DNA of 64,000 nucleotides from Torpedo marmorata (Eukaryota), in the NCBI GenBank assembly GCA_977017645.1, contig OZ360247.1, positions 32,736,001 through 32,800,000 on the forward strand. The letters run 5' to 3'. Positions within the stretch are counted from its first letter, which is position 1; each line of letters opens with the position of its first letter. A program made the position numbers and the translations under genes. Below, piece after piece: positions 40 through 63,925 of this stretch. The notes under the pieces were generated by a model that had not been told where the DNA came from, ran no database searches, and saw nothing but the letters and a program-made list of their open reading frames with translations.

Positions 40-300
40 TCCCCTACCCCTATCACTTCTCAACATTTTTCTCTTGTGCCCTTCCACCCCTATCCACCTA
101 TGACCTCTTGCCTGTGGCCCTGTGCTCCTCCCTTTGCCCCTTCCCCCCCCCCCCACCATTTTATTCAGACGCCTGCCTGCTTTCAGCTCATACCTTAACG
201 AAGGGCTCTGGCCCAAAACATTGGTCATGTACCTGTATCTTTATCTTTGCTGCATAAGGAACGCTGCGTAACTTGCTGAGTTTCTCCAGTATTTTTGTGT
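40..300 (+). mobile_element. Penelope-like pseudo-LTR fragment with degenerate hammerhead motif
   Basis: Pyrimidine-rich stretch then cagacgcctgcc..aacgaagggctctggcccaaaac..ctgagtttctccag; same family as 45129-45494. Confidence 0.65.
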
Positions 301-11985: not shown

Positions 11986-12770
11986 TAGACAATAGACAAT
12001 AGACAATAGGAGCTGGAGTAGGCCCTTCGGCCCGTCGAGCCAGCACCGCCATTTTACAGATCATGGCTGATCACTACTATCAGTACCCCTTACCAGCCTT
12101 ATCCCCATAACCCTTAACTCCTCTGCCCACTAGAGTCTTATCTAACTCTCTTTTGAACATAATCAGCGAATCTACCTCTACCACCCTCTGTGGCAGAGCA
12201 TTCCACAGATTCACACTTCTCTGGGTAAAAAAATTTTTCCTCATCTCCGTCCTAAAGGGCCTTCCCTGTATTCTTAAACTATGCCCTCTAGTCCTCGTCT
12301 CTCCCATCATTGGGAACAAGTAATCTGACTTCACCCTGTCTATCCCCTTGATAATTTTGTATACCTCAATCATGTCCCCCCTCATCCTTCTAAACTCCAT
12401 CGGATATAAGTCCAGTTTTTCTAACCTTTCAGCATATGTCAACCCTGCCATCCCTGGAACTAACCTTGTAAATCTGCGCTGCACACCCTCTATAGCTAGT
12501 ATGTCCTTCCTCAAATTTGGGGACCAGAACTGGACGCAATACTCCAGGTGGGGTCTCACCAGGGCCCTGTACAACTGCAGAAGGGCGTCTCTGCTCCTAT
12601 ACTCCAATCCCCTCTTTATGAAAGCCAACATGCCATTTGCCTTCTTCACAGCTTTCTGAACCTGCATGTTAGCCTTCAATGACCGGTGAACAAGTACACC
12701 CAGATCCATTTGCACTTCCCCACTCCCTAGCTTGTCGCCATTTAAATAATACTCAGCTTTCCTATTACTG
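11985..12770 (-). mobile_element. Young CR1-type LINE, 5'-truncated, open ORF2 C-terminus
   Basis: Stop-free 211-aa ORF 12080-12715 (DLGVLV..LVRPHLEYCVQFWSP..RRMRGDMIEVYK..GVKGYG); (caataga)n tail. Confidence 0.92.
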
Positions 12771-13265
12771 TAATGGTTCTATGAAAAAAAGGGATTGTTA
12801 AAGAGATTCAGTCTACATCTCAAATAGTGGAACTAGTTCAATGGGGCTGTATGGCCTCTTCTGGCTCTTTCTTCCATTGTTAAATGGAACTGAATTTCAG
12901 GTCAGCATGATGTAAGTGAATGGTGGAACATTGCTGAGGAAGTGTCCTATCATTCCCCTTCCTACATTTCAATGAGACGTTCACAAGCCAGTTCCAAACG
13001 GAAAGTGATTAGACATTTTCTTCACAAATCTGTCCATTCCAGCAATTTTGAAAACAGCCCTCCACCCTCGATCGTTAAAGTAAAATTATGCAATAAATGC
13101 AAATGTGATCCGTTACAGGATTTAATTTGAGGTGTGGGCAGAGAAATTTCAATGCCCCGCCTGGGTTATGAAGTTTGTTTTTCAAGTACTGAGGAAGTCA
13201 CATCCATCTCTTGCTTGTTTTCTTGCGGTTGTACTGAAGAGCCGAGGAGGAACTGCACCGACTGA

Positions 13266-13417
13266 CTATGGTTCTCAACCTTTTTTCCCCACTCACATAC
13301 CACCTGAAGTAATCCCTGACTAACCACCATGCATCCTATGCCATAGGTTCTCTGTGGTTAGTCAGCGATTAGTTAAAGTGGTACGTGAATGGGGGAAAAA
13401 AAGGTTGAGAACCACTG
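13266..13417. mobile_element. hAT palindromic MITE (same family as 776-934)
   Basis: tggttctcaacc...ggttgagaaccactg; no clear TSD. Confidence 0.8.
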
Positions 13418-28300: not shown

Positions 28301-31300
28301 TTGATCTCTTTTGTGTACTAGGGTGCTCCTGGCATTTCTGGTGCTCCTGGTTTCCCTGGCCCGAGAGGACCAAGTGGTTCACAAGGTGCTGTCGGACCTA
28401 CTGGCCCCAAGGGTAACAATGTAAGTAGCGTCTGGATCCATAGAAAAAATAGTCTGAGATATTCGGAATAGTGAATTTGGACTCATCTTTAAGTGTTTGT
28501 GATTCAGAGCATTCCTGAAATAGCATTTTTCACAAGGTTTTCAATCATACACGTTCATACTAAAATCTTCCTGTAATATTGTAATGGTATTGCCCCTGCA
28601 TTCATATCAAAAGTAGTTTTACAACTCTATGTAGTTGTGATTCATCCCTTATTAATAAAAACAGGAACATGAACAATACTCTTCCTATCAAATATTATTT
28701 TATCAACAACATAACACGCATTGATACAGAATCACAGATATTTCTGATACAGGTGCCTAACCTTTTATCCGAAAGCCTTGGAACCGGACACTTTTCTGAA
28801 TTTGGATTTTTTTGGATTATAGAATTATAATCTTTTAAATAATTGCGTTGCTTCAGATTCACGCAAAACAAAGACACACTCCAACTAGAAGGGTTTCTGG
28901 ACGGCGGCGCTGGATGGGGGGGGTTGCGGCGGCGCTGGATGGGGGGGGTTGCGGCGGCGCTGGACGGGGGTGTTCGCAGCGGCACTGGACGGGGGGTGTT
29001 CGTGGCGACGCTGGACGGGGGGGTGTTCGCAGCGGCACTGGACGGGGGGTGTTCGCGGGATGCTGGACGGGAGGTGTTTGCAGCGGCACTGCACGGGGGT
29101 GTTTGCGGCGGCGCTGGACGGGGGGTGTTCGCGGCGGTGCTGGGCGGGGTGGGGGGTGGTAAATGAAGTGAGATAAAGATAGACCATAAAATTACTAGCA
29201 TACTTTTTATTTTTAAGTAAAACATACAGTAAAACTTCAAACATTAACTGGCTCAAACTAAGCTAAACACCTGAAAATATACTGGAAAAAATGTTCGGTT
29301 TTCGGAGGTTTTCGGTTTTCGGATAAAAAGTTAGGCACCTGTATTACAAAAAGTAATGCCAGTGATTTCATGTACATTGTTGAATGCACGTTCTAATAGC
29401 TGATGTAATTCTCATGGAAATTTTATATTGCTTACCTATTGTAACTCCAGCAAGTAAATTATGTATAAAGCTGGAAATAACTGTTCTACTTCTTCAGAAG
29501 TTCTGATAATTTCCTATGGGGCACAGAGCATGACAAAAGTAAGCCTCTGCAGAATTTCAAGCCGATCGGGTTAAACTTTAATCATTATCTTAAAATGAAG
29601 GATGTACTGGCCTTGGAGGCGGTCCAGAGGAGGTTCACCAGGTTGATTCCAGAGATGAGGGGGTGAGCCTATGAGGAGAGATTGAGTCGTCTGGGACTGT
29701 ACTCGCTTGAATTTAGAAGATAAGAGGGATCTTATAGAAACGTATAAAATTATGAAAGGCATAGATAAGATAGAGGTAGGTAAGTTGTTCCCATTGGTGG
29801 GGGAGACTAGAACTAGGGAACATAGCCTCAAAATCCAGGGTAGTAGATTTAGGATGGAGATGAGGAGGAACTGCTTTTCCCAGAGGGTGGTGAATCTATG
29901 GAATTCGATGCACTTTGAAGCAGTGGAGGTGACCTCAGTAAATATATTTAAGACGAGGTTGAATAGATTTTTACATAGTAGGGGAATTAAGGGGTATGGG
30001 GATAAGGCAGGTAGGTGGAGATGAGCCTGTCATCAGATCAGCCACGATCTCGTTGAATGTGGAGCAGGCTCGATGGGCCGAATGGCCTACTCCTGCTCCC
30101 ATTTCTTATGTTTTAAGGTGCCTTCCTTTTTGACCACCTGAAATTTATCATCATTTATTTATACTTTAGGGTGAAGCTGGTGCCCCTGGTTCCAAGGGTG
30201 AAGCTGGCATCAAAGGCGAACCTGTAAGTTTAAACCTTGTGCTTTATTTATATTTCAGTTTTAATTAGGAATGTGATCACATTCTACCAAGTGCAGAGAT
30301 GGACTACCCCAGTAGACTGATTACTTATCCAATTCTCCAGGGCATTGCTGGTCCTCAAGGTGCACCTGGCCCAGCTGGAGAGGAGGGCAAGAGAGGTGCT
30401 CGTGGTGAGCCTGGCATTCAAGGCCTTCCTGGCGGCCCTGGTGAACGTGTAAGTTGAATATTATTTTCATTACTAAAATTAGCATCAAGCATATCCCCCA
30501 ATTGGCAGATCCTTTCCTCATATCTTTCCTTCTATTTCAGGGCTCCCCTGGAAGCCGTGGTTTCCCAGGTTCTGAGGGTCTTGTTGGCCCCAAGGTATGT
30601 AAATTTTACTAAATGCTCTTCTATTTTGATCTTTATAACAGGTGCACTGCAATTTGTAAGTTCCTCTAAACTTGTCTTACGATCCTTGCTTTAAATTCCA
30701 GGGTGTTACTGGTGAACGTGGAAATGTTGGTCCGGCTGGTCCAAAAGGGGCCACTGGTGAACCTGGAAGACCTGGAGAAGCTGGTCTGCCTGGTGCTAGG
30801 GTAAGTTTAATTAAAGCTGAGGAGCTCATGTAAAAGATGCCCATACGCCAAAGACAACCCAACAATGTGAAACAAAACGAACAGAAACATACTGAGAAAA
30901 ATAATCCAGATTATTGTTGCTCAGTGTAAAATAATATGCATCAGAAATAATTTCCTTCATAAATTGTAGCTAAGGTATAGATTGCAACTAAAAGTGGTGT
31001 TTCCTTGTTCAAGTTGTGAAATGGTAGAAGATCTGGTTCTGCAAGCTGAAACATTATAATTTTTTTAAAATCAAATTAGCTTGATCTTACCTGACATAAA
31101 CCTTTGGATATACTACAAAGAGCAAAATTCAACCTGTTTTTCAAACAACAATTCATTGATCAAACATTACAAATCAAAATCAGTAATACATGTTGAAAAA
31201 AAATGGTCCTTGACATTGTTTAATGTAGGAAATTACATTCTCTCTTTGGGACATAGCTAGTGATGGGGTGATTGAAGTATATTCCTCTTTAATGTATTGT

Positions 31301-34300
31301 TGGAGTTGTTTTAAGAGAACCTTAAATGTAAAGAAGTAAACACGAAAATCTGTAGACACCGTGGTTAGAGTAAAAAACACAAAAGCTGGAGAACTCAGCA
31401 GGTCAAACAGTGTCTTTTATGTAGCAAAGGAAGAAATACATAACCGACGTTTCGGGTTTGAGCCCTTCTTCAAAGAAGGGCTCAAACCCGAAACGTCGGT
31501 TATGTATTTCTTCCTTTGCTACATAAAAGACACTGTTTGACCTGCTGAGTTCTCCAGCTTTTGTGTTTTTTAAATGTAAAGAGGTATCTAACTGGTTACA
31601 TGTTAAAGTTTTTTCCCTGTTCAGGTTGACGTAGTAAGATTAAGAGACGATTTGAAGTGAGGGAAACATTCTTTTGGCCTTAAAGCAGACACATTGATAA
31701 TTGCCTCACTGGTCCTAATAGCTGCTGTTCATTGTCTGAAAAGTTCACGATTTTTGTTAAAAAATCTATAAAAAGTACTTTTGCATCTTTTGTATTTTAG
31801 GGTCTGACTGGGAGTCCTGGCAGTCCTGGCGCTGATGGCAAAGCTGGTCCTTCAGTAAGTATTGATTTCCCATAAATAAAATTTTAAACATTTTATTTTA
31901 AGCTGATATATAGTAATTTGTTAAAGTGGAGTGAACAGAAATGACAATGTTTTAAATGTAAATTGCATTATGTAATTACCAAATAAATTAGAAAGTATTT
32001 CCACAGAAGAAACCTTGGCTCGGAGCATCGTTTTCACAGCAACTTCAAATTGCCACCAACCTGTATTCTCTATTAACCTTGCAGGGTCCAGCTGGTCAAG
32101 ATGGTCGACCTGGCGCACCTGGTTCTGCTGGTCAAAGAGGTCAACCTGGTGTCATGGGTTTCCCTGGTCCTAAGGGGGCTGCTGTAAGTATGAACTTCAA
32201 ATAGAAAAATACTATAATTTGTATTGTATTCATTTTGAAGAATATATTGTGATCTAATGCTTAAAGTGCAGCATGTTTAGGTAACAGCAAATTACTGCTG
32301 ACATGCCTAGTATCTGTTCTCATAAAGCCACAGCAGCTCCTCTTCTAACACAGAACAGGATTTAGACAAGTGTTAAATCTATGACTTTAGCAGATTGAAA
32401 CCTGTAAGTTCTTATATTTCTGCTTAAAAGAAGCAGATTTAATGAGGATCAAATGCTTATACAAATAGACCATTATCAGAAACTAATTTCTAGGCTCATG
32501 AATTTTGGTAGTTTATTCAATGAAAAATAGTTTAGTTGAAGCAATGAAATATAAAGCTATGAGGTAACTTTTTTTATCAGTAAAGGATTGTGTTTTAAAG
32601 ATTAAACACTTACAATAATCTTGTGAGCCTTTATTCAATTCTGTTCTATATTTCATAGGGAGAACCTGGCAAACCTGGTGAGAGAGGAGTCGCTGGTATT
32701 GCTGGTTTGGTGGTATGTATTAGCTGGAAATTCTGCCTACAACATTCTTGTATTGTAACTGTAGTTAGTAATGTTTGCCACCATTGGTTGTCATGGATGG
32801 GTATAATCGAAGTATCAATATTTTTTTTCATTTTAGGGTCTTCCTGGCAAAGATGGTGAAGTTGGTGCTCCTGGTTCTACTGGTCCTGCTGTAAGTAATA
32901 TATGAATAATCTTATCAATTGGAGGAAATATATTTAGAATGATGAATCGGGCAAGGCCAATATTTATGCAAGTAGGGGAAAGCATAAAAAGAAAATGTTG
33001 CCCCTATTCTTTCTGCTTTACAAACATATGGGTTAAAGTTAATGTTTTCAACAAATTATAGAACATGACAGCACAGTACATGCCATTCGGCCCGCGATGT
33101 TGTGCCGACATATATATATATATTCCTACCAAAAAAATACTAAACCCTTCCTACCTCACGAGCCTCTATTTTTCTTTCATCCATGTGCCAGTCTAAGAGT
33201 CTCTTAAATGCCCCTAATGTTTCATCGTTCATCACCACCCCTGGCAATGCATTCCAGGCACCCACAACTCTATGTGGAAAAAAAAACTATCCCTGATGTC
33301 TCCCCCAAACTTTCCTCCCTTCAATTTGTACACATGTCTTTTTTGTCACTTTTTCTTTCTTTTCCTTTTTTCTTTTTATACAGAAACTGTTCCTGTTTAT
33401 TTTAGAATTATATATATATTATTATAGTAGCTAACATTACAGTTATAATGCATATAAAGCTGGATACCCAGTTACAGTTTTCTAGAATCTAGGCATTTAA
33501 ATAATAAAAATACAATTTTATATAGACAACTTCATAATTTGAATCTGTACCTTTTTTTACCCAGGGCCCCAGTGGTGAGAGAGGTGAACAAGGAGCCCCA
33601 GGACCACCTGGCTTCCAGGTATAAACATTAAATCATCACTAGAATTGAAGAGGATTTAAGAGAATTTTTTAATGTGTTTTGGTTCATTTCATTGCTTTAT
33701 TTAATCATTAATACACAATGTCCTAAATTTGTTTCTCTAGGGTTTGCCTGGTCCTCCCGGTGCTGCTGGTGAACCTGGAAAATCCGGTGAACAGGTTCGT
33801 ATCATGACATAAACGTGCACTGAAGAGAGGAATAATTATTGGTAGACCCTGTTTGCAATACACACATAAAAATTATCCTTGATTAATTTAAAGCCCATAG
33901 AAACATTGACAACAGATCATTGGTGATATTAAATTTTATTTATATATCCTACATATAGAAACTATTAAATTGACTAGGATATCATCAATACCATTAGATT
34001 AATTTGACAGAAATCACTGAGTTATCTCCGCCTATATCTTTTTAACTTTCAAAACCTGTTTTTCTGGTTGTTAGAGAATGTACCTATTTATTGAAAAGCA
34101 TTGACAGGAGTTTTCCTCTGTAGCGTAAATTAAGAAAAAATAAAAATACAATTTCCTGAGAATACAAATTTGTAAAGAAGATGTCACTTTTTGTGATTTT
34201 TTTTTAGGTTTATAATGATGCCATTATACAATAACTGTGTTATTTGCAATAAAATGTGCATAATATAAAATATAAACTGTATTGTAAACATGCTATTGTT

Positions 34301-37300
34301 TTATGATATATTAGGATTTTTTAACATTTTAATTATTATTTCTTTATATTTGTACAATAGGGTCTGCCCGGTGATGTTGGCCCTCCTGGTAGCCATGGTC
34401 CAAGAGTAAGCTTCTTCAAAATTACTCTTTATTGCAAAGAAAAAAATTCATTGGATGTATTTACCTCTATGTTCTTCTCTAATGTTCCAATCCCATTCTC
34501 TTTAGGGTGAGAGAGGCTTCTCTGGTGAACGAGGTGCTCCTGGCCCCATGGGCCCAACGGGTATTCGTGGCTCTGTTGGTTCTCCTGGTAACGATGGTGC
34601 TAAGGTACAAAAAAGCAAGTGAATTCAGCCAGAAACAATTGGTAGTATTTCCAGATAAATAATATTCATTATGTTTGCCATTGCAGAAACCAACATGATG
34701 TATGATTTAAATACTTATCTAATTTCCCTGTAAAATAGTCTTTTTTTTATCTCAGAACCAATGTTTGTGAAAAAGAGCAAGATTAAACTATGGGGGTGGT
34801 GTTCAACCATAGATCACACTGAGCAAGACAATGGGAGGAGAAAATAGATGGGTTAAAAAATCACTGAAGATATGGACAAAGATAGCAGTGTATCCTTGCA
34901 GGTGAATAGAATAGCTTGCGGGGTTCAGATGGTTTAATTTGCACCTTTTGGATGGCAGATGTCAGACATGGGTCAGGGGGAAGTTGCAGTCAGGATGTCG
35001 AATGTAGACTGGGAGAGCAGTGGCAAGGATAGGTGGTGATTACACTTCAGAAACAACAGGATCAGTTGACTTTATATTTGATGATGCGTGTAAAATAAAA
35101 CTCCAGGACAAGCACCTCAAGCACAATACTTGTGTAAGGTGGAAGCAGGTTCCCATAATTCAAAAGATTTATGTCCTATGCATGCCACCTTTTAATATAG
35201 CGGATGAAGCACACTTCTCATATAAATAGAATATTAAAGGAATTAAACTCTTCTTTAAATATAGTTTTTGAAAATCTTTTAATTTTGAACATGAATTAAA
35301 AAAAACGCATAACATCATTAGTGCTAATTCAGTATGTACAGAAATCTATTAATTTTAAATTTCAATGTTTGAGTTAAGTTTTGATATCTTTTCATTTCAT
35401 GTGCAGCCAGTGATGATGTATGAACACTCTCTGATTACTTACAGGGTGATGCAGGCGCACCAGGCGCTCCTGGTAATCAAGGTGCACCTGGACTGCAGGG
35501 TATGCCTGGTGAACGTGGTTCTAGTGGTCTTCCTGGTGCCAAAGGTGCAAGAGTAAGTATTCTTACCTTGATCACCCTTCAAAATTTTGTATAAAAAAAA
35601 ATCCAAAAAATTGCAAATATAATTTGAGTTGTTATTACTTGTAAATTGTGCTTAAAACTAACAAAGCTTTCCTTTGTCTTTTTCTCTAATAGGGTGATTC
35701 TGGTACAAAGGGCGCTGATGGCCCTCCAGGCAAAGACGGAATCAGAGTAAGTAGTCAGATGTTCGCTGGATTTAGTTTTTCACTGGCCCCAATCATGCGT
35801 GCTTGCAGGAAGTTGACAGCAAAGGAATCAGGCTGGAGAATTAATGTTATAGCATGGTGTCCATCCCGCACTCAGTGCCGGCACATCAATACTTTCCTGC
35901 CTGGAACAGGCAGATAAATTAATTTAACTTGTTCCTACTTCAAGCGGGTTTCATTATATTTGCATTCTATAATGTATTTTGAAACATCAAAATAATCATA
36001 AGTTACTGAATACTGGGATACTAATTTTAAAATGTTATTATTCTTAGGGTATGACTGGAGCAATTGGACCACCTGGTCATGCTGGGGCCGCTGGTGAGAA
36101 GGTATGATATTTCAATGTTATTTACCTTTAATAAAATACCTTGCAGAACATGACAAAGTTAGTATCCATAAACTCAGCATTGGCATTGCATCTTCAAAGA
36201 CAATCAATACAGAAATTGACACTTTTAACCTGCAAAGAATATATTTCTTTTCAAATCATTAAAAATCACTGCAACATTTTTTTTGCATTCGAACCATATG
36301 ACATGTTTAGGTGTATATTGTTAGTTGTTGACATTTAAGACATATCAAATGCAGTATTTTTGGTATCTTCAAGTAATGTTGCATTGCGTTTCAATTATTT
36401 ATGGTTATTTTCATTGATTATAGGGTGAAGCTGGTCCTCCCGGCCCTGCTGGTCCCACCGGTGTCCGTGGTCAGTCTGTAAGTAGAATTTAAATTGTATG
36501 CCCATCAGTTAGAAATTCATCCTTGCTTGCTTGCATTAAGTGCACAATGTAGTCATGATTGCACATCAGAATCAGAATTCATTGTCGTGAACAAGTAATG
36601 AAATTCGGTGTTTTGCGGCAGCATCATAGTGCAAACATTCATATCATAACCATCTTACGACATTACTATAAAAAATATATATAAATAATAATGCATGAAA
36701 AGTAAGGCAGTGTCTTTGGTTCATTGATTATTTAGGAATCTGATGGCAGCGGGGAAGAAGCTGTCCTTGTGCCGTTCAGGCTCCTGTATCTTTTTCCCAA
36801 TGGAAGCAGAGTGAAGAGGGCATGGCCTGGGTGGTGGGGGTCTTTGAGGATAGAGGCTGCTTTTTTAAGACACCACCTCATGTAGATGTCCTCGATGGAG
36901 TGAAGTTTGGTGCCTGTGATGTCACAGGCCGAGTTAACAACCCTCTGGAGTTTATTCTTGTCCTGAGAGTTGGCGCCTCCATACCAGGCAGTGATGCAAC
37001 CAGCCAGAATGCTCTCCACGGTACACCTGTAGAAGTTTACGAGAGTCTTCGGTGACATACCGAATCTCCTCAGACACCTCACAAAGTATAGCCGCTGACG
37101 AGCCTTCTTTGTGATTGCATCAACGTGGAGGCTCCAGGACAGATCCTCGGAGATGTTGACACCCAGGAATTTGAAGTTCTTGACCCTCTCCACTACTGAG
37201 CCCTCGATGAGGACTGGGTCGTGTTCCCCTGACTTCCTCCTGAAGTCCACAATCATCTCCTTGGTTTTGCTGACGTTGAGCGCAAGGTTGTTGTCGTAAC

Positions 37301-43300: not shown

Positions 43301-46300
43301 CATTTACTGATGATTATACTTTGAAGTCAATTTTTTTTCCAAGAATATATACATTTGCTATTGATTTTCTTCTCTGCAATATGATCTGTTATGTTTCAAC
43401 ATTACATCTTCTCTTAACGCTGAGTCCATTAACCAGAAGTATTTTCTCTATTCTACCTAGGGTGAACCTGGCAAGCAAGGTCCAGTTGGTGCACCTGGTG
43501 ATCGTGGACCTCCCGGTCCAATGGGTCCTCCTGGTATCGCTGGCCCACCTGGTGAATCTGGTCGTGAGGTATGAATGTAACCAAATTAAGGCACCTGAAA
43601 AATTGATTTAAATTGGTTTCATAGTACAATGCTTAAACACTTGTGTTTGCACCTGTCAACGAAAGTAACTGGTAGGATCTCCTACCTGCTGCCGATTTCG
43701 AATCCTGTTTTAATAGGGATCCTGTCGACTACGGCAAGCCTGAAAATGAATTTAACATTCAAAGACCTCGATTTTTAACTGACTTTATTTCACATGATAT
43801 ATCATGGAGAGTAGGTGGCAGTCTCCACTGCTTACCGATTCTGAAATAAGAACACAAGAAATAAGAGCAGGAGTAGGCCATCCGGCTTGTCAAGCCTGCT
43901 CTGCCGTTCAATGTGATCATGGCTCATTTGATGATAGGCTCATCTCCACCTACCTGCCTTTTCCCCATATCCCTTAATTCCCTTACTACTTCTACTTCTA
44001 CAAACGCGTATATTTATACAGAGAGACGAACAATCGTTACAGAAAATAGGATAACTGCATGGAATAAACCTGTTGAAAACTACATCAAGACCTTCATTAC
44101 AAATTTTGTATTAAAATCTTAATTTTATCTAATCTGAAGGAAAAAGTGTCAATAACACTGTTAGCATCCTTGACTACGGTTAAGGCTACAACTTAGTTTC
44201 TAAATAATTTGAAGAAGAATGCATCAATAACCACTGTTAGCATCCTTGTCTACAGTTAAGGCTTAACTTCTAAATAATATCTCAGTTAGCAGATCTTGTA
44301 TTTAAAATGGGCTGTTTGCCAACTATGTTAGTATCAGTGTCAAAGCTGAGAGCACAAACTTTCTTTCACAGCTTTGGTGTCAACTATGTTAGTGACTGTC
44401 AATCTTCATAAAATTTCTTCCGCAGCACCTCAGCATTTTTGTAATTTTTGCATACGTTTTTTTTGCACCCCACTCTTTTTTAAAAAAAAAATCAGATTAA
44501 AAATACAATTTAAATGCACAAGAATTAAATAGGATCAGGCTCCATCTTTTATTTCTGTATTAATTAGTGCCTGCCAAAATTATTTGGATAAATGCACGTT
44601 AAAATACAAAATCAAGCTACTTTCAACAAATTAATTCGACCACGAGGAATGCAACTCATTAAAAATGCTGAAGGTGCATTTACCCTTTTGCCTGCAATTT
44701 CCACAAGAGGGTTGAAAATGTTCATTAGAACTCTAATTCCAGCAAAATACGGCTGCAAATAACGTGCCTTTTTCGAAAATTGGGAAGTGCCTTTACTCTC
44801 TCTGGACACTAAACATGTGACGACCATCACCTCATTCTGAATCATGGAGTAAGATCCAGGGATTCTCACTCCATTTTCACTCTGGCATTGTAACGGCCTT
44901 GGCATTTGATTGAACCCTTTGGACTCCATATCCCGGTTTTCAGGGACTACAAACAAGTGCGTATACTCCATGTTCTTGTTTTCCGGGACTGGTTTTATAC
45001 TCAACCACCAGCTGGTTCATACTGGTGTTTGTACTGTAGTCTACCCATGGACCCAGTCCGGAGTGTATATTATGAAAGGTCAAAAATGGCCGGTGTCCAA
45101 AGGGTTAAGCTCTGTACACAATATAGGTTAACATTAACATTGACTTTTCTGCTTTCCACTAAACCTGCTTGTCGTTCCCTTCCCCTCCCCCCTCACCTGT
45201 CCTTCCTGTTTTTCTCCAGCTACCTAGCCATCCCTCCTCCCCCTCTTTGCTGCTGTCCCCTCCCTCCTTTCTCCGCCTATCATCTCCTGCCTTTGCCACC
45301 CTCCTTCCCCCCCCCTCACTCTTTTGTTCGGACGCCTGCCGGCATTTTCTCATACTTTGATGAAGGGCTCAAGCCCGAAACGTCGGTTATGTATTTCTAC
45401 CTTTGCTACATAAAAGACAGTTTGACCTGCTGAGTTTCTCCAGCATTTGTGTTTTTTACTTCACCCACGGTGTCCACAGATTTTCGTGTTTTACTACACA
45501 ATATAGGTGCATCTTTTTGTGAAATGAAATCTCTTTGCACCGACATTGCAACTTGAAAAGTAAATGCATCTTAAGAGCATTGGTGAAAAGAATTCTCAAA
45601 ATTTTAGATCATTTACATTTTTATCTTTATTTCCTACAGGGTGCTCCTGGAGCTGAAGGTGCCCCTGGTCGTGATGGTGCGACTGGTCACAAGGTCAGTA
45701 GTTTTTCTCCATTTCTGGCTCCCAAATATTGCTCATTACCTTTTTTTAATGTCATTACATTTGGCCAGTTAATTACTGGTGTAAAAGCTAACATTATGTT
45801 CCTTTTCAGGGTGATCGTGGTGAATCTGGTCTGCCCGGTGCTCCTGGCGCTCCCGGTGCTCCTGGCGCTCCGGGTCCAGTTGGACACGCTGGCAAGAATG
45901 GCGATCGTGGTGAACCTGTAATTACAATATTTGTTCTAAACTCTACCATTTAAAATGCATTGATTTAAAATTTGACAATTAGATTCACATTTTGTTTTGT
46001 TTTACAGGGGTCTGCTGGTCCTGCCGGTCCTGCCGGCCCAATGGGTCCTCGTGGTCCAGTTGTAAGTAGCATTTACTTTTTAACATTATTCAACAAAATG
46101 TTCAACTTTACTCAGTAGAGTCAAATTCCTTCAGGGCGCCCGATGAAAATCCTCAGCACGGTTAGCTTAGCCGTTAGCGTGACGCAATTACAGCTAACTG
46201 TAAGGAGTTTGCACGTTCTCCCTGTGTCTGCGTGGGTTTTCCCCGGGGGGCTCAAAAACGTACTGGGGGGTTGTAGGTCAATTGGGCGGCACGGGCTGAA

Positions 46301-49300
46301 AGGGCCTGTTACCGTGCTGTATGTCTAAATTTCAAACAATTTTGCAGGTCGATTTTATTTTATAATCATTTAAGTACATGCAAAGGTTAAGTGCATGCTT
46401 ACCTTTTTGTTTGTCAGAGGTAACACAAAAATGTGTTGGCTAAACCAAATGCATGATTGCTATAATATTAAAAAGGTTTTAAGTTTATTGTAAACAGTGT
46501 AGGGCAGTGGTTCTCAACCTTTTTTTTTTAACACTTGCATACCACCTGTGCTCTGTGGTTAGTAAGGGATTACTTAAGTTGGTATGTGAGTGGGGGAAAA
46601 AAAAGTTTGAGAATCACTGGTGTAGTGCATATTAACCCAACTACAGCAGGACCGCCCTTTCTTAGATTTTCAGAAATGTAAATAATGAAACTCCAAATAG
46701 CAGTAATTGTATGGAATCTCTTTTCAAATAGGGTGCAGTTGGTCCCCGTGGTGATAAAGGTGAATCCGGTGAAGCTGGTGGAAGAGGCATTAAAGGACAC
46801 AGAGGCTTCCCAGGTGTTCAAGGTCTGCCTGGTCCCCCAGTAAGTTACCCATTTTCATTGAAAAGAACAACTCTTATTTCTGCAAGTAGTTCTTTCTGCA
46901 CAAGGTTTAAATGTTTTAAGATATTAGAAAATTTAGTATTAGGAATAGATTGAATATGTATCAGGTAGAATATTTGCGAATTGCTTTAGCTGTCTCAAAA
47001 AAATGTATTGCTATTACTTGGAAATCAGATTTAGGTTTAAGTTTAGATAGGTGGCATGCAGAACTCCGTTCGTGTATTCCTTTGGAAAAGATTACTTACA
47101 ACTTATGTAATAAATATCATTCTTTTTTAAAAATTTGGAGCCCATATATGAGAATTATGGGTTTAAGGATTTGAAATCTCTAGAAATCAGGTCTATCGGC
47201 GAGTTTAACCTCCAGGATAGAATAAGTTTTTAGATGCTTCTCTCCTCACTATTAATCTATTAATCTATTTTTCTTTTTCTTTCTTTCTTTTTTTTTTAAA
47301 CTATTTTTAGAATAGTGGGGTGGGGGGTGTTAGGGTGGGGTGGGAGGGTTTGGGGGGAGGAAATTTATATCACTTGTATTTTGGAAACTATATATTTTGA
47401 TTTGTGTATTGTGTGATTTAAAATTTAAATAAAAGAATAAAAAATAAAAAAAATAAAAAGGTTTAAATGTTTTACTTTATTTGACAGGGTCCTCCCGGTG
47501 AACAAGGTCCTTCTGGTTCCTCTGGTGCTGCAGGTCCCCGTGTAAGTCTCCCCTCCGTTGCAAAAAAAAAAAATGTCTTTTAGTTACTCTAATCTTCTCA
47601 CTAAGCAAGACTGTGTTTCAGTTACATTCAATAACAGAAAAAGAAAACATTAAAATTTGGAATGCGTAATCTTTCTATAATTACTCCAGTGTCCTTAATA
47701 TTAGGAGAATCTGACAAAATGGTCACAGATTTAACTTGTTACTTTTTCCCTGTCTTCTAGGGTCCCGCTGGCCCATCTGGTTCTCCTGGTAAAGATGGTG
47801 CTAATGGCTTGCCTGGTCCAATCGGTCCACCTGGTCCTCGTGGTCGTACTGGTGAAATTGGTCCTGTTGTAAGTAAAAACTCGATTGATGCCATTACAAT
47901 TGATGATGAGTTTGATCCTCTTCAAGCCATGTTTCCTTAATTGCATTTTCACCCCCCTGCAGGGCCCAGCTGGACCTCCTGGTATCCCTGGTCCCCCTGG
48001 CCCATCTCATGGAGGATTCGACTTCCAATTTGGAGCACCACAAATCGAAAAAGGTCCAGATCCACTCCGTTACTTCAGGGCAGATGATGCTGGTGCTATT
48101 GTAGATCGTGATATTCAAGTTGACACCACTCTGAAATCCCTGACCCAGCAAATTGAGAGCATCCGCAGCCCCGAGGGTACCAGAAAGAACCCAGCCCGTA
48201 CTTGCCGTGATCTGAAGATGTGCCACCCAGAATGGAAGAGCGGTAAGCTGAGATACGAACCTGATCTATACTCTTCATAACCAACATTGAAATTTATCCG
48301 CGGAGTAAATTTAAATGTAGGGAAAATACATTATAAACAAGAATCGCTATTTTGATTGAAGTAAAATTCAACTGCACAAAAGGTCGAAGTTAGGTTTGAG
48401 TTGACTTTTATCTTTATCAGGGTGTTATAAAGCCAATTGTTGTGTGGAAAGGGAAAAGTTTGGTGGGTTCAAAGAATAGTGGGTCTGGATACAGGCTGAA
48501 TGCAGAAATCATCTTTATTGAAACACACATAAGGGGATCGCAACAGGGATAACACAATCACACAACACAGTGCAACCCAGTCACATTGGGCTTTATTCTA
48601 CCGATACCAGCAACTGCTTACACTCTTGCAAGCACAAGTCACATTGGACTATAATAGAACTGAAATTGGTCTTGGTGAATCACCAGTGGAACATCAAACA
48701 AATTCACCATTTTTTATACAGGTGATTACTGGATTGATCCAAACCAAGGCTGCATTCTGGATGCCATCCGTGTGTACTGTAACATGGAAACTGGTGAGAC
48801 ATGTGTCTATTCAAGCCCACAATCCATCCCACAAAAGAACTGGTACATCACTAAGAATCCAAAAGAGAAGAAACATGTCTGGTTTGGCGAGAACATGGAT
48901 GGTGGCTTCCAGGTAGGAACAAATATTTTTTCTTAACTTATAGAAATTATTATTCATTAAACTTACCAGGTAATTTTGTTTTATTAATGATGAAATGGTA
49001 AATTAAAATGGATTTGTTTAGCAAAAAAAGGTCATTCAAAGCTTATTGTGACCTTAAAGTATCTTACTGCTTTGGAAGTATGCTTCAAAATTACACTTTT
49101 AGAATGAATAACTTAAATTTTCTTAAATAAACTTAAATAAAACTTTTATTCCTTCTGATTTTAGTTTGGCTATGGTGGTGACGATGGTGTTCTTGCCAGC
49201 GATGTTGCAATCCAGATCACCTTCCTGCGCTTAATGTCTTCTGAGGCAACACAGAACATCACATACCACTGTAAGAACAGCATTGCCTACATGGATGAAG

Positions 49301-55405: not shown

Positions 55406-58089
55406 CATTTTAAATAGAATGCAGCGTGCAATTTGTAAAATGGTTGTTGCGTAAGTGTGGGTTTCTCTAGATAAGTTATCAAATGTCCCTGACCTTATTC
55501 TCCATCATTCACACGTGAGAAATATAGATCTGAATAATATCAAGAAAGGCGACTTGCCCAAATAAAGTTAACTCCTGCTGTTAAAAAAAGTACTTTCAGA
55601 GATATTGGCGCCAACAAGATCAGTTTATAAGATTAATGGCCCATTAAACTCAGCCTGTGAGGCGGACAATTCTTGATCTTCCTCGCCTCTCGGGAGCTTC
55701 CACTTTTGACAGTAACATTTATGTTTCACTTTTGAACTAGTTATTACGTGTTGCAGTATTGTGTAGAAAAAAAAATGCCTCCAGTTCTGAAAACGAAACG
55801 GAGAAGCAGCTTGTCCCTTTTAGAAATAAACGAATGCTAACTTCGAAAATTTAAAGTTAGGATCGACCACCCATTGATTTGGCGAAGTCCAGGAGGGTGG
55901 AAACCAAAGATTTTACGGTTCAAACATCAGCGACTTGCAGAGAGTTTCCGTGCGCGACAGCAGTTCTCTCCGCTCATGTTGCGAGTGCATGGGATTCCGG
56001 TCATATCTCCGAGGTCCCCGTGACTCGCGAAGACAGCCCACTGGAGTTAAGGTTATAAGAAGCGCAAAGCTGCAGAACCGTTTCGTACCATTTCTACAGT
56101 CCTCCGTCTTTAATTCGGCGTTCATTTTTCCTTTGCCAGAACTTAGTGACCACAGGGAAGGAATTCTGCGAGATGTCTTCGCCTGGATTAAATGAAAATT
56201 GTTTAGATTTTATTTCAATTCGGACTGTTTAAGAGACGCTCGAGTCGCTTTGTTCAACAGCACCATCGTGCTAACTTGCAGGATTTATTTTTGTGACGGG
56301 TTTCTTTTTCCGTTTTATACTTGCAATCCAACCTTGCTGTACTTTTAAAATTGTATCGGAAGTGCGCTTTCAAGTTAAATTTCGTGGCAATGAAAACGGG
56401 AAGAAAAACATCGAGTTACATTTTTGATAGAATCTTTCTTACAAATGTCGTGTTCAAATCGCAGATTAGATCTTAGAGCGAGTGCTTTGTTTTACCTGAT
56501 ATATTTGTGTTTTACTTTATTGCTTAGATCGAGACATAGTCGAGGTTTTTAAGCTATCACATATTTTAAGAGTTAATAGGTAAATTAGAAGGTACCGAAA
56601 AGCAATTCGAGATATTTTGCTGCATTTCTAAATTGTTTGACATGTTTTAACTTGTACTCACAACGGTTTTGTTTGGCAGTTTTATCCACTGTGGGCGATT
56701 AAAAGATCTGAATTTCATTGAAATAGAAAAAAAAAAGCAGATCTGTACATACAATTGAACATAAGATTTTGTGTTTGTGCGTTTAAAAAAAAAACCCAGA
56801 CCAGTTATTAAGACGGAAACGCCAGAATCGGTTATTATCACAGTTTGGGAGACCAAATTCCAGGCAACCAAGTACCTCGAATTTGAAGTTCTGTTGACAG
56901 CGAAATTGTCAACATTATTGAAAACCGAGAGCAACTTGTGGAATTCTCATACCCATAGTTAAACGTGAAATTCCAAATGTTTCTATCGAGGTTACGGCGA
57001 ATCAGATTGGGATTGTCTGCTGCATTCTTCCTGGTTGCAATAAAATGTATGGCAATGAATTGTTATTATGGCAAAGACACTGGAAATGTTGAATCTTGTT
57101 GAACGAGATGCATTTGGCTGTACGATCTCCTTGGCTCTGAAAACGCTTAATATTGTAAGTTTCGTCATTGTTGTTTCATCGTTAAAATTTTATCATAAAT
57201 TTAATTTAAACTTGTATTTCAATATTTTTTTCCGTAGAAGGGTTAAAATGTTAATTACACTCAGTCTATTATATTCCGGTTTACTTACTGAGATAAATTC
57301 ACCTGAATTTCGGTGAGGATTGCTTGATGATCTGGATGTCGAAGAATCCAATGAAATTGCCAAACTAAAAGATCAGCACAGACTAGAAGGGCCGAAGGGC
57401 CCGTTTCTGTGCTGTTCTATGGTTCATGCCAGACCTAGAGGGAAACCAAAGTCGGGGAGCTCAACAATTGTTTGCAGCTTTCTCTTGAGGTTGAAAACAA
57501 TCTCTTTGCTCCTGAATGTAAAATCCAGGTTGCACAAAATACAGAGCAAGTGGTAACATTCTGTTTTCGTAATCGTTCCGTGATCTTGCTTTTCGACAAC
57601 TTGACACTTTGAAGGCACCCTATAAATATTAGTTGCGTTTGTGCTTTAATGCTGCATCGGCTTGTTTTTTGAGCTAAGCAATAATCTTGAAATCCGGTGT
57701 TGGCATAACAGGGATTTAAAAACGTGTTTAATTGTACGAATTGAAATCAAATAGCAGGACCTGCATGGAGTGGAAAGTTGGTTTAAAATAACCCCAAACC
57801 ACTTAACGGGAAGTGTGTGATTACCAGAGTAAAACACGAATGTCTGCAGACACCGTGGTTGAAGTAAAAACACAATGCTGGAGAAACTCAGCAGGTCAAA
57901 CGGTGTATAGAATAAAGATACATAACCACCTTTTCGGGCTTGAGCCCTTCATCAAGGTATAAGCAAAATGTAGGCAGGTGCCTTCGATTCGGCGATGGAG
58001 CGATTCGGGCACCTGCCTACATTTTGCTTATTCTGTACCTTGATGAAGGACTCAAGCGCGAAACGTTGGTTATGCATCTTTGCTCTATA

Positions 58090-58691
58090 CCGGGGTGGCC
58101 ATACCTGCTTAACGTAAGATACGATAAACCAGATGTTTGAGAGCCGCAAGGCATGAAAAAAAATGATATACACGTTTTTACTCTTACATGCCTATTTTGT
58201 TACAAAAATGTATATAAATATTAAGAAATAGATGTACATAATAATTATTTGTGTATGTGGTTTTTAAACTGATTTGTATTGGTTTCAATAATAAAGTACA
58301 CATACCGTATATACGCATGTAATAGTCGAATTTTGTGGGCCAATTTTTTAGGGTTACAATTTAAGAGGTCGACTATTACACACACTACTTTTGACAGCAG
58401 TAAGTACCTGCGTCATTCGAAGAGCTCGGATGGGCGGGCGGCTGGAGCCCAGGGGAGAGTCTGCGGTTGGGGGCGCAGGAGCTCGGATGGGAGGGCGGCC
58501 AGGGCCTCGGTGAGAGTCCACGGTCGGGGTGTCGGGAGTTCAATGGGCAGGCGGCCGGGGCTGAGGTGAGAGTCTGCGGTCGGGGCGCAGGGGTTCGGAT
58601 GGGAGGGCGGCTTGTACAATTCCTGTCTGAGCCAAACTATTTCCGTGAGCCGCATATGTTGGCTGTCAGAGCTGCAGTTTGGCCACCCCTG
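58090..58691. mobile_element. hAT-like MITE with GC-rich internal repeats
   Basis: ccggggtggccatac ... gtttggccacccctg TIRs with subterminal gagccgca; TSD only partial. Confidence 0.65.
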
Positions 58692-58700
58692 CTCTCACAA

Positions 58701-58852
58701 CAGTCGTTCTCAACGATTTTATCCATAGAATCAAAACTTATTGTCATGAAATTCGGTGTTCACGACAATAAATTCATGTGCTCTGTGGTTATTAAGGGAT
58801 GACTTAAGGTGGTACCGTGAGTGGGGGGGAATAAAAAGGTTGAGAACCACTG
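58701..58852. mobile_element. hAT MITE (776-934 family), chimeric left half
   Basis: cagtcgttctcaac ... gtgctctgtggtta..ggttgagaaccactg. Confidence 0.7.
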
Positions 58853-59139: not shown

Positions 59140-60000
59140 CCAGACCGTCTCCACCCGCCGGCGGCTCTTGCTGCAGCCAGCGGCCGCTTCCCGCAGCCAC
59201 GCGGCGAGAATCGGCACGCCGGCAACCGTGATTGGCTCATTTCGATGGGTGAACAACGTCACGCGAGGCCGTGTGCACTGTGATTGGCGCAGGGAGGAGG
59301 ACACTGTGATTGGGCGGCGACTCCACCGTCTGATCTGTGATTGAAGCAAAGAAACAGGCAGACGCCGCTGGAAATGATTGGCTGCTTGCGGGGTCGATAG
59401 TCGGGTGCTGATTGGACGGTTGAGCTATTTTCCCGGCAGTGATTGGCTGCGAGCGGGGTCAATAGTCGGGTGATGATTGGTCAGTTGCGGTGTTTACGGG
59501 CAGTGATTGGCTGCGAGCGGGGTCAATAGTCGGGTGATGATTGGTCGGTTGAGGTGTTTACGGGCAGTGACTGGCTGCGAGCGGGGTCAATAGTCGGGTG
59601 ATGATTGGTCGGTTGAGGTGTTTACGGGCAGTGACTGGCTGCGAGCGGGGTCAATAGCCGGGTGATGATTGGTCGGTTGCGGTGGTTACGGGCAGTGATT
59701 GGCTGTGCGGCTTGGGGTGGGAGGAGGGTTCTGACGTGAGCGCCCGTTCTTCCGCCGACGGGGCGGCGAGAGGGAGCACGATGATGAGGGTCGTGCGGTG
59801 GGAACCCGGACGGGTTCCGTCGCCGCGCTAAAACCGGAGGCGGCAATTGCTGGTGTCGGCGACGTGGCCTTGACCGCCTGTCGCCTTCACAGTCCGTGCG
59901 GACGGGGAGCCGCGGCCTGCGGTGTTAACGTCCCCTCTCCTGGACCTCGCTGAGGAATCCACACCGGGGGAAACCCAGGCAGAAACTAACGTCCTCAGCA
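59140..60000. promoter_or_regulatory. CpG island / probable promoter of an unidentified neighbouring gene
   Basis: Dense CpG, 12 ATTGG boxes, CRE-like tgacgtga 59732-59739, GC-rich 5' UTR-like sequence after it. Confidence 0.65.
59372..59706 (+). repeat. 64-bp tandem repeat (~5 units), two inverted CCAAT-type boxes per unit
   Basis: ga(t/c)tggctg recurs at 59376, 59441, 59505, 59569, 59633, 59697. Confidence 0.92.
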
Positions 60001-60074: not shown

Positions 60075-61720
60075 GAGTAAAAGTCTGCAGACACCGTGAT
60101 TGGAGTGAAAACACAATGCTGGAGAAAACCACACAGTAAATGCTGGAGGAACTCAGCCGGTCTCGCAGCGTCCACAGGAGGTAAAGATATATTACCGATG
60201 TTTTGGGCCTGAGCCCTTCTTCAAGGTTTTGGCAAAGAACAGGAAGGTGTCAGAATAAAGACTGAAGTATGGCAGGGGGAGGAGTCCAGGTCAATAGCCA
60301 AAAGGTGTTAATTGGATATGATAAGAGGAAAGGTGAGAATTGGTTTTGCGTCTGTNNNNNNNNNNNNNNNNNNNNNNNNNNNNNNNNNNNNNNNNNNNNN
60401 NNNNNNNNNNNNNNNNNNNNNNNNNNNNNNNNNNNNNNNNNNNNNNNNNNNNNNNNNNNNNNNNNNNNNNNNNNNNNNNNNNNNNNNNNNNNNNNNNNNN
60501 NNNNNNNNNNNNNNNNNNNNNNNNNNNNNNNNNNNNNNNNNNNNNNNNNNNNNNNNNNNNNNNNNNNNNNNNNNNNNNNNNNNNNNNNNNNNNNNNNNNN
60601 NNNNNNNNNNNNNNNNNNNNNNNNNNNNNNNNNNNNNNNNNNNNNNNNNNNNNNNNNNNNNNNNNNNNNNNNNNNNNNNNNNNNNNNNNNNNNNNNNNNN
60701 NNNNNNNNNNNNNNNNNNNNNNNNNNNNNNNNNNNNNNNNNNNNNNNNNNNNNNNNNNNNNNNNNNNNNNNNNNNNNNNNNNNNNNNNNNNNNNNNNNNN
60801 NNNNNNNNNNNNNNNNNNNNNNNNNNNNNNNNNNNNNNNNNNNNNNNNNNNNNNNNNNNNNNNNNNNNNNNNNNNNNNNNNNNNNNNNNNNNNNNNNNNN
60901 NNNNNNNNNNNNNNNNNNNNNNNNNNNNNNNNNNNNNNNNNNNNNNNNNNNNNNNNNNNNNNNNNNNNNNNNNNNNNNNNNNNNNNNNNNNNNNNNNNNN
61001 NNNNNNNNNNNNNNNNNNNNNNNNNNNNNNNNNNNNNNNNNNNNNNNNNNNNNNNNNNNNNNNNNNNNNNNNNNNNNNNNNNNNNNNNNNNNNNNNNNNN
61101 NNNNNNNNNNNNNNNNNNNNNNNNNNNNNNNNNNNNNNNNNNNNNNNNNNNNNNNNNNNNNNNNNNNNNNNNNNNNNNNNNNNNNNNNNNNNNNNNNNNN
61201 NNNNNNNNNNNNNNNNNNNNNNNNNNNNNNNNNNNNNNNNNNNNNNNNNNNNNNNNNNNNNNNNNNNNNNNNNNNNNNNNNNNNNNNNNNNNNNNNNNNN
61301 NNNNNNNNNNNNNNNNNNNNNNNNNNNNNNNNNNNNNNNGGACAGTTCTGTGAAAGGCTCCCTCTCTCTCCCCTCTGTCTCCTTTCACAGAGCCAAAATC
61401 AATTCTCACCTTTCCTCTAATCATATCCAATGAACACCTTTTGTTGGTCTGGACTCCTCCCCCCGCCAGTCTTCAGACTTTATTCTGACTCCTTCCTGTT
61501 CTCTGCTTCTACCTTGAAGAAGGGCTCGGACCCGAAACGTCGGTAATATATCTTTACCTCCTGTGGACGTTGCGAGACCAGCTGAGTTCCTCCAGCACCT
61601 TTGTATGTGTTTACTACAATCACAGCGTCTGCAGACATTTGTGTTTCACTCCAAGATGCTGGATATAGCAAAGATAAAGATACATAACCAATGTTTCGGG
61701 CTTGAGCCCTTCGTCAAAGT
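60075..61720. mobile_element. Inverted Penelope-like pseudo-LTR arms flanking the gap
   Basis: 60140-60355 is an imperfect reverse complement of ~61385-61600; hammerhead-like ttgaagaagggctcggacccgaaac at ~61513. Confidence 0.78.
60356..61339. other. Assembly gap (N run)
   Basis: 984 consecutive N. Confidence 0.99.
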
Positions 61721-62447: not shown

Positions 62448-63045
62448 TTCATAAGAACATAAGAAATAGGAGTAGGCCATCCAGCCCGTTGAGCCTGCTC
62501 TGCTATTCAATGAGATCATGGCTGATCTGATGATAGGCTCATCTCCACTTAACCTGCCATATCCCTTAATTCCCTTACTATATAGCAATCTATCTAACCT
62601 TGTCTTAAATATTTACTGAGATCGCCTCCACTACTTCAATGGGCAGCGAATTCCACAGATTCACCATTCTCTGGGAAAAGCAGTTCCTCACCTCTGTCCT
62701 AAATTTACTACCCTGAATCTTGAGGCAATGTTCCCTAGTTCGGATCTTCCCTACCAATGTAAACAACTTACCTACCTCTATCTTATCTACGCCTTTCATA
62801 ATTTTATACGTTTCTATAAGATCCCATCTCATTCTTCTAAATTCCAGCGAGTGCAGTCCCATATGACTCAATCTCTCCTCATAGGTTAACCCCTTCATCC
62901 CTGGAATCAACCTGGTGAACCTCCTCTGCACCGCCTCCCAAGCCAGTACATCTTTCCTCAACTAAGGAGACCAGAACTGCACGCAGTACTCCAGATGCGG
63001 TCTCTCCAGTATCTTGTACAGTTGCAACATAACCTCCCTGCTCTT
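62448..63045 (-). mobile_element. CR1-type LINE 3' fragment
   Basis: [42 protein letters not shown]; cataagaacataag tail. Confidence 0.9.
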
Positions 63046-63149
63046 AATCATTTAGTGAAACAAAGGGATTGAATTTAACTGCAAAATCCAGGATAACAAA
63101 CAAATCAATTAAAATATATGTTTTTAAAAACATGCAAACTGTTGGCTGA

Positions 63150-63925
63150 AATCTGTCCTGGGCACATCCTCCTCATGAATGCAACAAGTACAGGGTTCCC
63201 TTCGTCCTCACCTACCACCCCACCAGCCTCTGCAAACAATGTATCATTCTCTACAATTTCCACCAACAACATTGGGATCTCATCACCAGCCACATCTTCC
63301 CCTCCACTTTACATTGAGATCGCTCCCTCCGTGACTCCCTTATCTCTTCCCACCAGTCACCCTCCTGGTACCTAGCCCTGTGAATCCAAGAAGTGCCACA
63401 CTTGCACTCGCACCTCCTCCCTCACACTATTTGGGGTCCAAATAGTACTTCCAAGCGAAGCAACGCTACACCTGCGAATTTGTATTTACAGCATCCAGTG
63501 CTCCCGATGTGGCCACGTCTACATTGGGGAGACTGATCCCAGAGTGAGGATTGTTTCATTGAGCAGCTTTGCTCTGTTCGCTTCAATAGAAAGAACCTCC
63601 CAGTGCCCAATCACTTCAATTCCAAACCCCATTGCCATATTGAAATGTCTGTCCATGGCCTCGCATGCTGTCAAATTGAGGCCACTGTAAATTGGAGGAA
63701 CAGCACCTTGTATTCCGTCCCGGCAATCACCAACCAGACAACATCAATATCATCTATTTCCATTAACCCCTCCTTCCCCAATCACTCTCTTTCCCTCATC
63801 CTTGCTGTCTCCCTTTCTCCAGCTCCCCAGCCCCTTCTCTTCCAACTCCTAACAAAGCTATTATTCTCAGCTTTCTTCCCCTATCACTTCTCAGCTTTCT
63901 TTTCCCCCTCCCACCTATTATTAAC
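63150..63925 (+). mobile_element. Penelope-like element ORF 3' remnant (GIY-YIG endonuclease) plus pseudo-LTR start
   Basis: Frameshifted VPFVLTYHPTSL, PGT*PCESKKCHTC, IYSIQCSRCGHVYIGET, PVPNHFNS, then a pyrimidine-rich stretch. Confidence 0.85.

What the first reader, a model, noticed from the sequence alone, without database searches (positions are those of the whole stretch)
45340..45400. Minimal hammerhead-ribozyme motif repeated in Penelope-like pseudo-LTRs, including inside the collagen pre-mRNA
Seen: atac-t-ttgatga-a-gggc(tcaa)gccc-gaaa-c(gtcg)g-tt-atgtat. This is a (C/U)UGANGA box, a 4-bp stem II, GAAA, a 1-2 bp stem III and a short stem I (atac/gtat). Related copies sit at ~195, 31445-31500 (both strands), 57925-57960 (-), 58040 (+), 60195-60225 (-), 61513 (+) and 61690-61720 (-). 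A matching GIY-YIG remnant lies at 63150-63760. Known: Penelope-like elements carry minimal type I hammerheads that often act as dimers. Inference: this is a mobile non-autonomous retrozyme-like family, and the sense copy in intron 42 is transcribed with a very abundant mRNA. The C3U change and extra A make activity uncertain.
Basis: partly seen in the sequence, partly recalled or inferred. Interest (0 to 1): 0.7.

Follow-up and report, generated by a model that had tools for sequence, protein, structure and literature searches.

The report
Penelope retrotransposon stub in collagen intron
The motif is the known tiny hammerhead RNA motif at the end of a very abundant, protein-coding Penelope-type jumping gene; one cut-short copy landed in a collagen intron, where it likely does not cut the collagen RNA.

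Summary
The motif and all listed copies are real. The intron-42 copy is the 364-nt 3' end (45132-45495, 14-bp target duplication) of a young, autonomous, Neptune-like Penelope element. Relatives carry RT and GIY-YIG in one frame and form a 4-kb head-to-tail array, so this is not a non-autonomous retrozyme. Its core has U3·G8 in 77,844 of 78,698 matching genomic copies; a U3/G8 PLE hammerhead is already in a 2014 supplement. Insertion ends avoid the predicted cut site: 3' ends lie about 75 and 110 nt downstream of it, and 5' ends pile up 4-5 nt before the core, so the copied RNA was likely uncut. The collagen copy has no intact same-strand partner in the gene, and one RNA-type contig splices intron 42 cleanly. 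Cleavage is untested. The scan has already reported this family several times in this genome and in others. Real but ordinary.

The parts
45115..45128 (+). left target-site duplication (14 bp)
   Evidence: identical 14-mer at 45115-45128 and 45495-45508
45132..45495 (+). 5'-truncated copy of a young Penelope-like element: last ORF codons plus pseudo-LTR and tail
   Evidence: 93-98% identical to the other 29 genomic loci, whose homology mostly continues further 5'; matches each unit end of the tandem array
45133..45162 (+). last nine codons and stop of the RT-GIY-YIG ORF (INIDFSAFH*)
   Evidence: same C-terminus as the 977-aa frame in L034
45351..45391 (+). minimal hammerhead motif: helix I 45351-56 with 45385-91 (one bulge), core UUGAUGA 45357-63 (U3·G8), extra A 45364, helix II 45365-76, GAAA 45377-80, self-complementary ACGU 45380-83, predicted cut after C45384
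   Evidence: matches the consensus in PMC4209133 Fig S3 apart from U3
45352..45354 (+). site where 5' ends of genomic copies pile up; likely the start of the element's own transcript (inferred)
   Evidence: junction counts 702 and 927, against 104 at the predicted cut site and 42-153 at three control sites
45424..45445 (+). conserved hairpin-like motif shared by C3 and U3 families; possible RT-binding signal (inferred)
45460..45495 (+). about 36-nt optional PLE tail between the two preferred 3' ends
   Evidence: 3' ends bimodal in 59 of 60 sampled copies
45495..45508 (+). right target-site duplication
43461..43568 (+). COL1A1-like exon 42
45640..45693 (+). COL1A1-like exon 43
31338..31572 (.). 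inverted pair of element ends in collagen intron 23; tail on one arm only; the sense arm has a broken core (UCAAAGA)
125..298 (+). decayed older copy
57828..58090 (.). inverted pair of older copies, both with core or stem lesions
60080..60342 (-). copy of an older U3 subfamily (TACC/GGTA helix I), GAAA damaged
61394..61653 (+). copy of the same older U3 subfamily, core intact apart from U3
61663..61720 (-). short decayed copy
63183..63763 (+). degenerate GIY-YIG end of an older, different PLE family
   Evidence: tblastn 39% identity, E 2.5e-21, with stops and frameshifts

Best explanation
The intron-42 sequence is a 364-nt, 5'-truncated copy of the 3' end of an abundant protein-coding Penelope-like retrotransposon, flanked by a 14-bp target duplication, and the hammerhead motif inside it likely does not cut the collagen pre-mRNA. 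In the parent element the motif sits in the pseudo-LTR about 150 nt before the ORF start. The element RNA likely starts 4-5 nt before the core (inferred). The RT-GIY-YIG protein would nick DNA and start reverse transcription internally at either end of the tail, about 75 or 110 nt past the predicted cut site, on RNA that has not been cut there (inferred from copy ends). With no helix III and a U3·G8 wobble in place of C3-G8, the motif is predicted to be at most a slow, dimer- or protein-dependent ribozyme.
For: Target duplication and a fixed 3' end with variable 5' ends. L034 has an uninterrupted 977-codon frame with RVT_1 (E 4.3e-7), a GIY-YIG hit (E 0.0011, below Pfam's cut-off) and a CX4CxxC linker. 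A 5-unit head-to-tail array of about 4,019-bp period, led by a partial unit and flanked by one 12-bp duplication, places the motif before the ATG. Of 60 young copies, 48 start more than 30 nt upstream of the core; 3' ends lie at +101..111 (26) and +137..147 (33), with one at +119 and none at the cut site (+28). Estimated 5'-end junctions number about 1,600-2,300 at -5/-4, about 370 at the cut site and 240-390 at controls. Helix I pair 2.2:1.2 is C-G in 22 and U-A in 14 of 42 rows. Non-CpG core positions are 95% conserved against 80% in the spacer, and N7 is 70% (54 of 99 anchored copies). The monomer's best fold is a non-hammerhead hairpin, -12.5 against -8.4 kcal/mol. No other intact sense copy lies in the gene. 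One RNA-type contig joins exon 42 to 43 at GT..AG. Published: a single min-HHR showed no cleavage (PMC4209133); the anole PLE HHR needed protein and its mutants still inserted in vitro (PMC11167929).
Against: No cleavage assay exists for this motif. The helix I covariation is one or two lineage-level events counted many times, and the rows were hand-picked. The RNA contig is from one small run of uncertain type whose donor may lack this insertion. The 5' pile-up could be RT stalling or fold-back rather than a transcript start; about a third of the listed -4 junctions are fold-backs. No intact full-length copy was seen: L034 is 5'-truncated and the array units are frameshifted. Clade placement rests on the linker motif, not a tree.
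Confidence: 0.85

Rival explanations
1. The U3·G8 motif still cleaves slowly in the parent element (as a dimer or with the element's protein), and abundant collagen pre-mRNA supplies a trans partner or is occasionally cut in intron 42.
For: The core and helices stay conserved across U3 subfamilies. The palindromic ACGU allows an intermolecular helix III. Family sequences are plentiful in run X1. A U3/G8 PLE hammerhead is listed for Saccoglossus.
Against: The ACGU duplex is only -2.3 kcal/mol and the predicted dimer fold is not the active form. No excess of copy ends at the cut site. Intron 42 is spliced normally in one contig. Even C3 min-HHR dimers cut poorly in vitro (PMC4209133).
Confidence: 0.1
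2. A non-autonomous retrozyme-like family: a short non-coding unit that spreads through self-cleaved circular RNA.
For: A minority of short stubs begin at one site just before the motif: 7 of 60, 6 independent.
Against: Most copies run into the coding ORF; the window copy itself contains ORF codons; the tandem unit seen is 4 kb and coding; ends do not coincide with the cut site.
Confidence: 0.04
3. The motif is catalytically dead throughout the U3 lineage and is kept only because it overlaps the element's promoter, 5' leader or protein-binding site.
For: U3 in 98.9% of intact cores without the A8 compensation. The inferred transcript start lies at its 5' edge within an initiator-like TCATACT (consensus recalled). 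HHR mutants still insert in vitro (PMC11167929) and some PLE clades lack canonical HHRs (PMC8557442).
Against: Variation is concentrated at N7, loop II and pair-preserving helix I changes, as expected for selection on a hammerhead fold. This rival is compatible with the main reading for the collagen copy.
Confidence: 0.35

Closest known systems
Minimal hammerheads (min-HHR) in pLTRs of metazoan Penelope-like elements (Cervera and De la Pena 2014, PMC4209133)
   Same: NNN-(C/U)UGANGA-H-helix II-GAAA-CG-UC-NNN layout, extra nucleotide after A9, G10.1-C11.1, palindromic 15.2-16.2, short helix I, one per pLTR, thousands of truncated copies. Fig S3 lists a U3/G8 member (Saccoglossus 1).
   Different: U3·G8 is the dominant form here (98.9%) in about 78,000 intact-core copies; no cartilaginous fish appears in that paper's Table S1 or Fig S3.
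Neptune clade of endonuclease-positive PLEs (Craig et al. 2021, PMC8557442)
   Same: [quoted passage not shown]
   Different: Clade not tested by a tree; a long Pro/Ala-rich repeat sits in the N-terminal part.
Poseidon PLE of Anolis carolinensis (Frangieh et al. 2024, PMC11167929)
   Same: Two internal RT start sites bounding a 30-40 nt tail; uncut RNA as the main template.
   Different: There the ORF starts inside the hammerhead and the core is C3-G8; here the ATG is about 150 nt downstream and the core is U3·G8.
Animal non-LTR retrozymes (bioRxiv 10.64898/2026.07.22.740005)
   Same: Hammerhead related to PLE pLTRs; reported in one chondrichthyan.
   Different: Those are short non-coding tandem units; this is the truncated end of a coding element.

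Membership tests
Canonical type I hammerhead | Watson-Crick C3-G8 (or U3-A8) core pair | tested here: not met
   U3 with G8 in the window copy and in 77,844 of 78,698 pattern matches
Canonical type I hammerhead | Closed helix III; match to Rfam hammerhead models | tested here: not met
   no loop between 15.2 and 16.2; no hammerhead among 15 Rfam hits at E<=10
PLE minimal hammerhead (min-HHR) | Core U4 G5 A6 N7 G8 A9, G12 A13 A14, A15.1-U16.1, H17 | tested here: met
   intact in the window copy; non-CpG core positions 87-98% in 54 aligned copies, N7 70%
PLE minimal hammerhead (min-HHR) | C at position 3 (consensus above 80%; U3 exceptions are listed in the defining paper) | tested here: not met
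   U3; a U3/G8 member is in Fig S3 of PMC4209133, so it is filed as that variant
PLE minimal hammerhead (min-HHR) | Extra nucleotide between A9 and G10.1; G10.1-C11.1 pair; palindromic 15.2-16.2 | tested here: met
   A45364; pair kept in 41 of 42 rows; ACGU
PLE minimal hammerhead (min-HHR) | Short helix I with compensatory changes between families | tested here: met
   pair 2.2:1.2 is C-G 22, U-A 14, U-G 4 of 42; few independent events; outer pairs weaker
PLE minimal hammerhead (min-HHR) | Location in the pLTR of an RT-endonuclease element | tested here: met
PLE minimal hammerhead (min-HHR) | Self-cleavage as a dimer or with protein | not testable with these tools
   copy ends show no excess at the predicted site
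EN+ PLE, Neptune-like | Single ORF with RT and C-terminal GIY-YIG | tested here: met
   977-codon frame in L034; RVT_1 above cut-off, GIY-YIG E 0.0011 below cut-off
EN+ PLE, Neptune-like | CX2-5CxxC linker between RT and EN | tested here: met
   C-x4-C-x2-C in L031, L034, L035
EN+ PLE, Neptune-like | Partial-tandem or inverted pLTRs and optional tail | tested here: met
   window 31338-31572
EN+ PLE, Neptune-like | RT phylogeny within Neptune | not tested
   no named reference PLE proteins were at hand
Non-LTR retrozyme | Short non-coding unit independent of an ORF, in tandem repeats | tested here: not met
   48 of 60 copies extend more than 30 nt upstream, mostly into the ORF; the tandem unit found is 4 kb and coding
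Non-LTR retrozyme | Circular RNA joined at the ribozyme site | not testable with these tools
   only assembled contigs were available

The most novel reading that the evidence does not exclude
A retrotransposon lineage damped its own ribozyme (C3-G8 to U3·G8) while keeping the fold, and came to dominate the genome because an uncut RNA keeps both its 5' end, which lies a few bases before the core, and its downstream RT start site. The U3 and C3 families of one genome would then be a natural test of whether PLE hammerheads help or hinder transposition.
Probability: 0.25. Interest if true: 0.55.

Novelty: new member of a known kind. Interest (0 to 1): 0.27.

Why it matters
The role of hammerheads in Penelope elements is still open. 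This family offers about 78,000 copies with a wobble core, older C3 relatives in the same genome, and copy ends that map both ends of the template RNA away from the cut site. That makes the question testable, but the motif type and the U3/G8 variant are in print, the scan has noted this family repeatedly, and the collagen location looks incidental.

Tried and rejected
Rfam scan: no hammerhead model matched; the hits were miRNA-like models on inverted repeats. Alternative reading 'C3 plus an inserted U': possible for the older TACC subfamily but not for the youngest (TACT) one, and the 2.2:1.2 covariation favours U3. Stem II covariation: almost none, one both-sided cell in 42 rows; a pattern for other stem II sequences returned mostly point mutants. 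Intron in the pLTR: a GT follows the cut site and an acceptor-like CAG lies 55 nt on, but C3 families lack the GT and no such joint was listed. Rolling-circle origin of the 5-unit array: alternating shared variants and a recombinant last unit fit DNA-level duplication at least as well. Excess of 5' ends at the cut site: none; of 30 loci inspected, 10 were true ends, 10 inverted junctions, 6 internal indels and 4 duplications. Cap-derived G before the -5 ends: hand count of the 100 listed was inconclusive. PDB search with the ORF: no hit. Lunse et al. 2017 on small PLE hammerhead variants is not held and may already list U3·G8 variants; searches for C3U or U3-G8 kinetics gave no direct rate.

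Full report
Observation. An exact 28-nt pattern has 62,851 matches in the 6.2-Gb genome and its reversed control has none. The host gene has a VWC exon, 43 Gly-X-Y exon candidates and a COLFI domain, and its best PDB match is collagen alpha-1(I). The insert lies between the exons at 43461-43568 and 45640-45693, intron 42 by the recalled human exon series. Rfam returned no hammerhead among 15 hits. The organism is probably a cartilaginous fish; this rests on recall and on earlier scan notes and was not tested.

What the insert is. The insert spans 45132-45495 between two copies of a 14-bp target duplication. It begins with the last nine codons of an ORF. The 30 best genomic matches share its 3' end and differ in how far they reach upstream. 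Of six long copies fetched, L034 holds an uninterrupted 977-codon frame (5'-truncated) with an RT domain, a C-x4-C-x2-C linker and a GIY-YIG end; the GIY-YIG score is below Pfam's cut-off. The linker marks Neptune and Nematis PLEs in PMC8557442 (passages). On C11 five 4,019-bp units follow a partial unit head to tail, with the motif about 150 nt before the ATG of the next unit; these units are frameshifted. Inverted pairs with a tail on one arm occur in the window at 31338-31572. This is the architecture of an autonomous PLE, not of a retrozyme. The remnant at 63183-63763 is an older family, 39% identical.

The motif. On 42 hand-picked rows from C3 and U3 families, the register GAAA-CG-UC followed directly by helix I pairs 82.5% of cells, with pair 2.2:1.2 switching between C-G (22) and U-A (14); 0 of 500 shuffles reached its score, but the rows are related, so this is one or two events. 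Stem II hardly varies. In 54 of 99 copies anchored on the downstream hairpin rather than on the motif, non-CpG core positions were 95% conserved against 80% for the spacer (Mann-Whitney p 0.004), with N7 at 70%; alignment to the window copy favours matches. This layout is the min-HHR consensus of PMC4209133 (main text parts 1-2 of 4 and supplement parts 1-2 of 3 read), including the extra nucleotide after A9. Position 3 is U in 77,844 and C in 854 matches to otherwise equal patterns. Many of the 30 C3 loci inspected belong to distinct families with other flanks. C3-G8 is a core pair whose usual natural swap is U3-A8 (PMC3088659, passages), but Fig S3 of the 2014 paper lists a PLE motif with U3 and G8, and PMC7151607 (passages) mentions a U3 variant from a halophile.

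Does it cut? No assay was possible. The monomer's best fold buries the core (-12.5 against -8.4 kcal/mol for the hammerhead-like fold; z -1.65) and the intermolecular ACGU duplex is weak. Copy ends record the template. In the 60 young copies sampled from the start of C1, 3' ends lay at +101..111 (26), +119 (1) and +137..147 (33) from position 3, none at the cut site at +28. 5' ends were spread, but 7 of 60 (6 independent) fell at -6..-1 where about 0.3 were expected. This lead came from earlier scan notes and was then tested genome-wide: junction patterns gave 702 at -5, 927 at -4, 104 at the cut site and 153, 42, 88 at three controls, or about 1,580, 2,350, 370, 390, 240, 250 after correcting for the excluded letters. 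These counts include small indels and fold-backs counted twice. Several more-than-unit-length copies run through the cut site twice. The simplest reading is a transcript that starts just before the core and is copied uncut from two internal start sites, as shown in vitro for the anole element, where ribozyme mutants still inserted and cleavage needed protein (PMC11167929, parts 1-2 of 4 read). The transcript start is inferred, not shown.

The collagen copy. It is transcribed in sense as part of the intron, but the only other sense copy in the gene has a broken core. One contig of run X1 (RNA by guess; donor genotype unknown) joins exons 41-45 and skips intron 42 at GT..AG. Nothing suggests domestication: the copy is one of tens of thousands, is 97.5% identical to other insertions and keeps a perfect target duplication.

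Comparison and verdict. It works like, and apart from position 3 conforms to, the minimal hammerheads of metazoan PLEs; it is not a canonical hammerhead and not a retrozyme (bioRxiv 10.64898/2026.07.22.740005, abstract and first part of Results). Searches for shark or elasmobranch PLE hammerheads found no dedicated paper, but Lunse et al. 2017 could not be read and bioRxiv supplements are closed. PMC6155905 and PMC6765202 were seen as passages. The scan holds 47 notes on this topic in this genome, several on the same U3 family, and similar notes on other genomes; these are unchecked notes, not support. Real, a new member of a known kind, with modest interest as a test case for whether PLE hammerheads need to cut.

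Noticed in passing
G000:C11:118,216,430-118,237,418 (L127-L129): Five head-to-tail 4,019-bp units plus a partial 5' unit, about 99.5% alike, inside one 12-bp target duplication; variants alternate between units and the last unit's 3' part comes from another subfamily.
   Followed up: partly
genome-wide: Many copies are perfect fold-backs centred 3-5 nt before the core, giving end-to-end inverted stubs.
   Followed up: partly
window 35693-35746 and 36048-36101: Collagen exons 33 and 34 are separate 54-bp exons here; recalled as fused in human COL1A1.
   Followed up: no
window 772-919, 11462-11614, 11711-11852, 13261-13402, 46539-46605, 58769-58835: A family of short inverted-repeat (MITE-like) elements that give spurious miRNA-model hits.
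   Followed up: no
window 21395-21694/41038-41337, 38686-39012/41775-42070, 12193-12599, 29597-30057, 62539-63046: LINE- or SINE-derived fragments in both orientations.
   Followed up: no
window 59370-59748 and 28891-29152: Tandem repeats of 64 bp and 25 bp in GC-rich regions.
   Followed up: no
window 60141-60342 and 61394-61597: Two older element ends form 88% complementary arms around the 984-nt N stretch.
   Followed up: no
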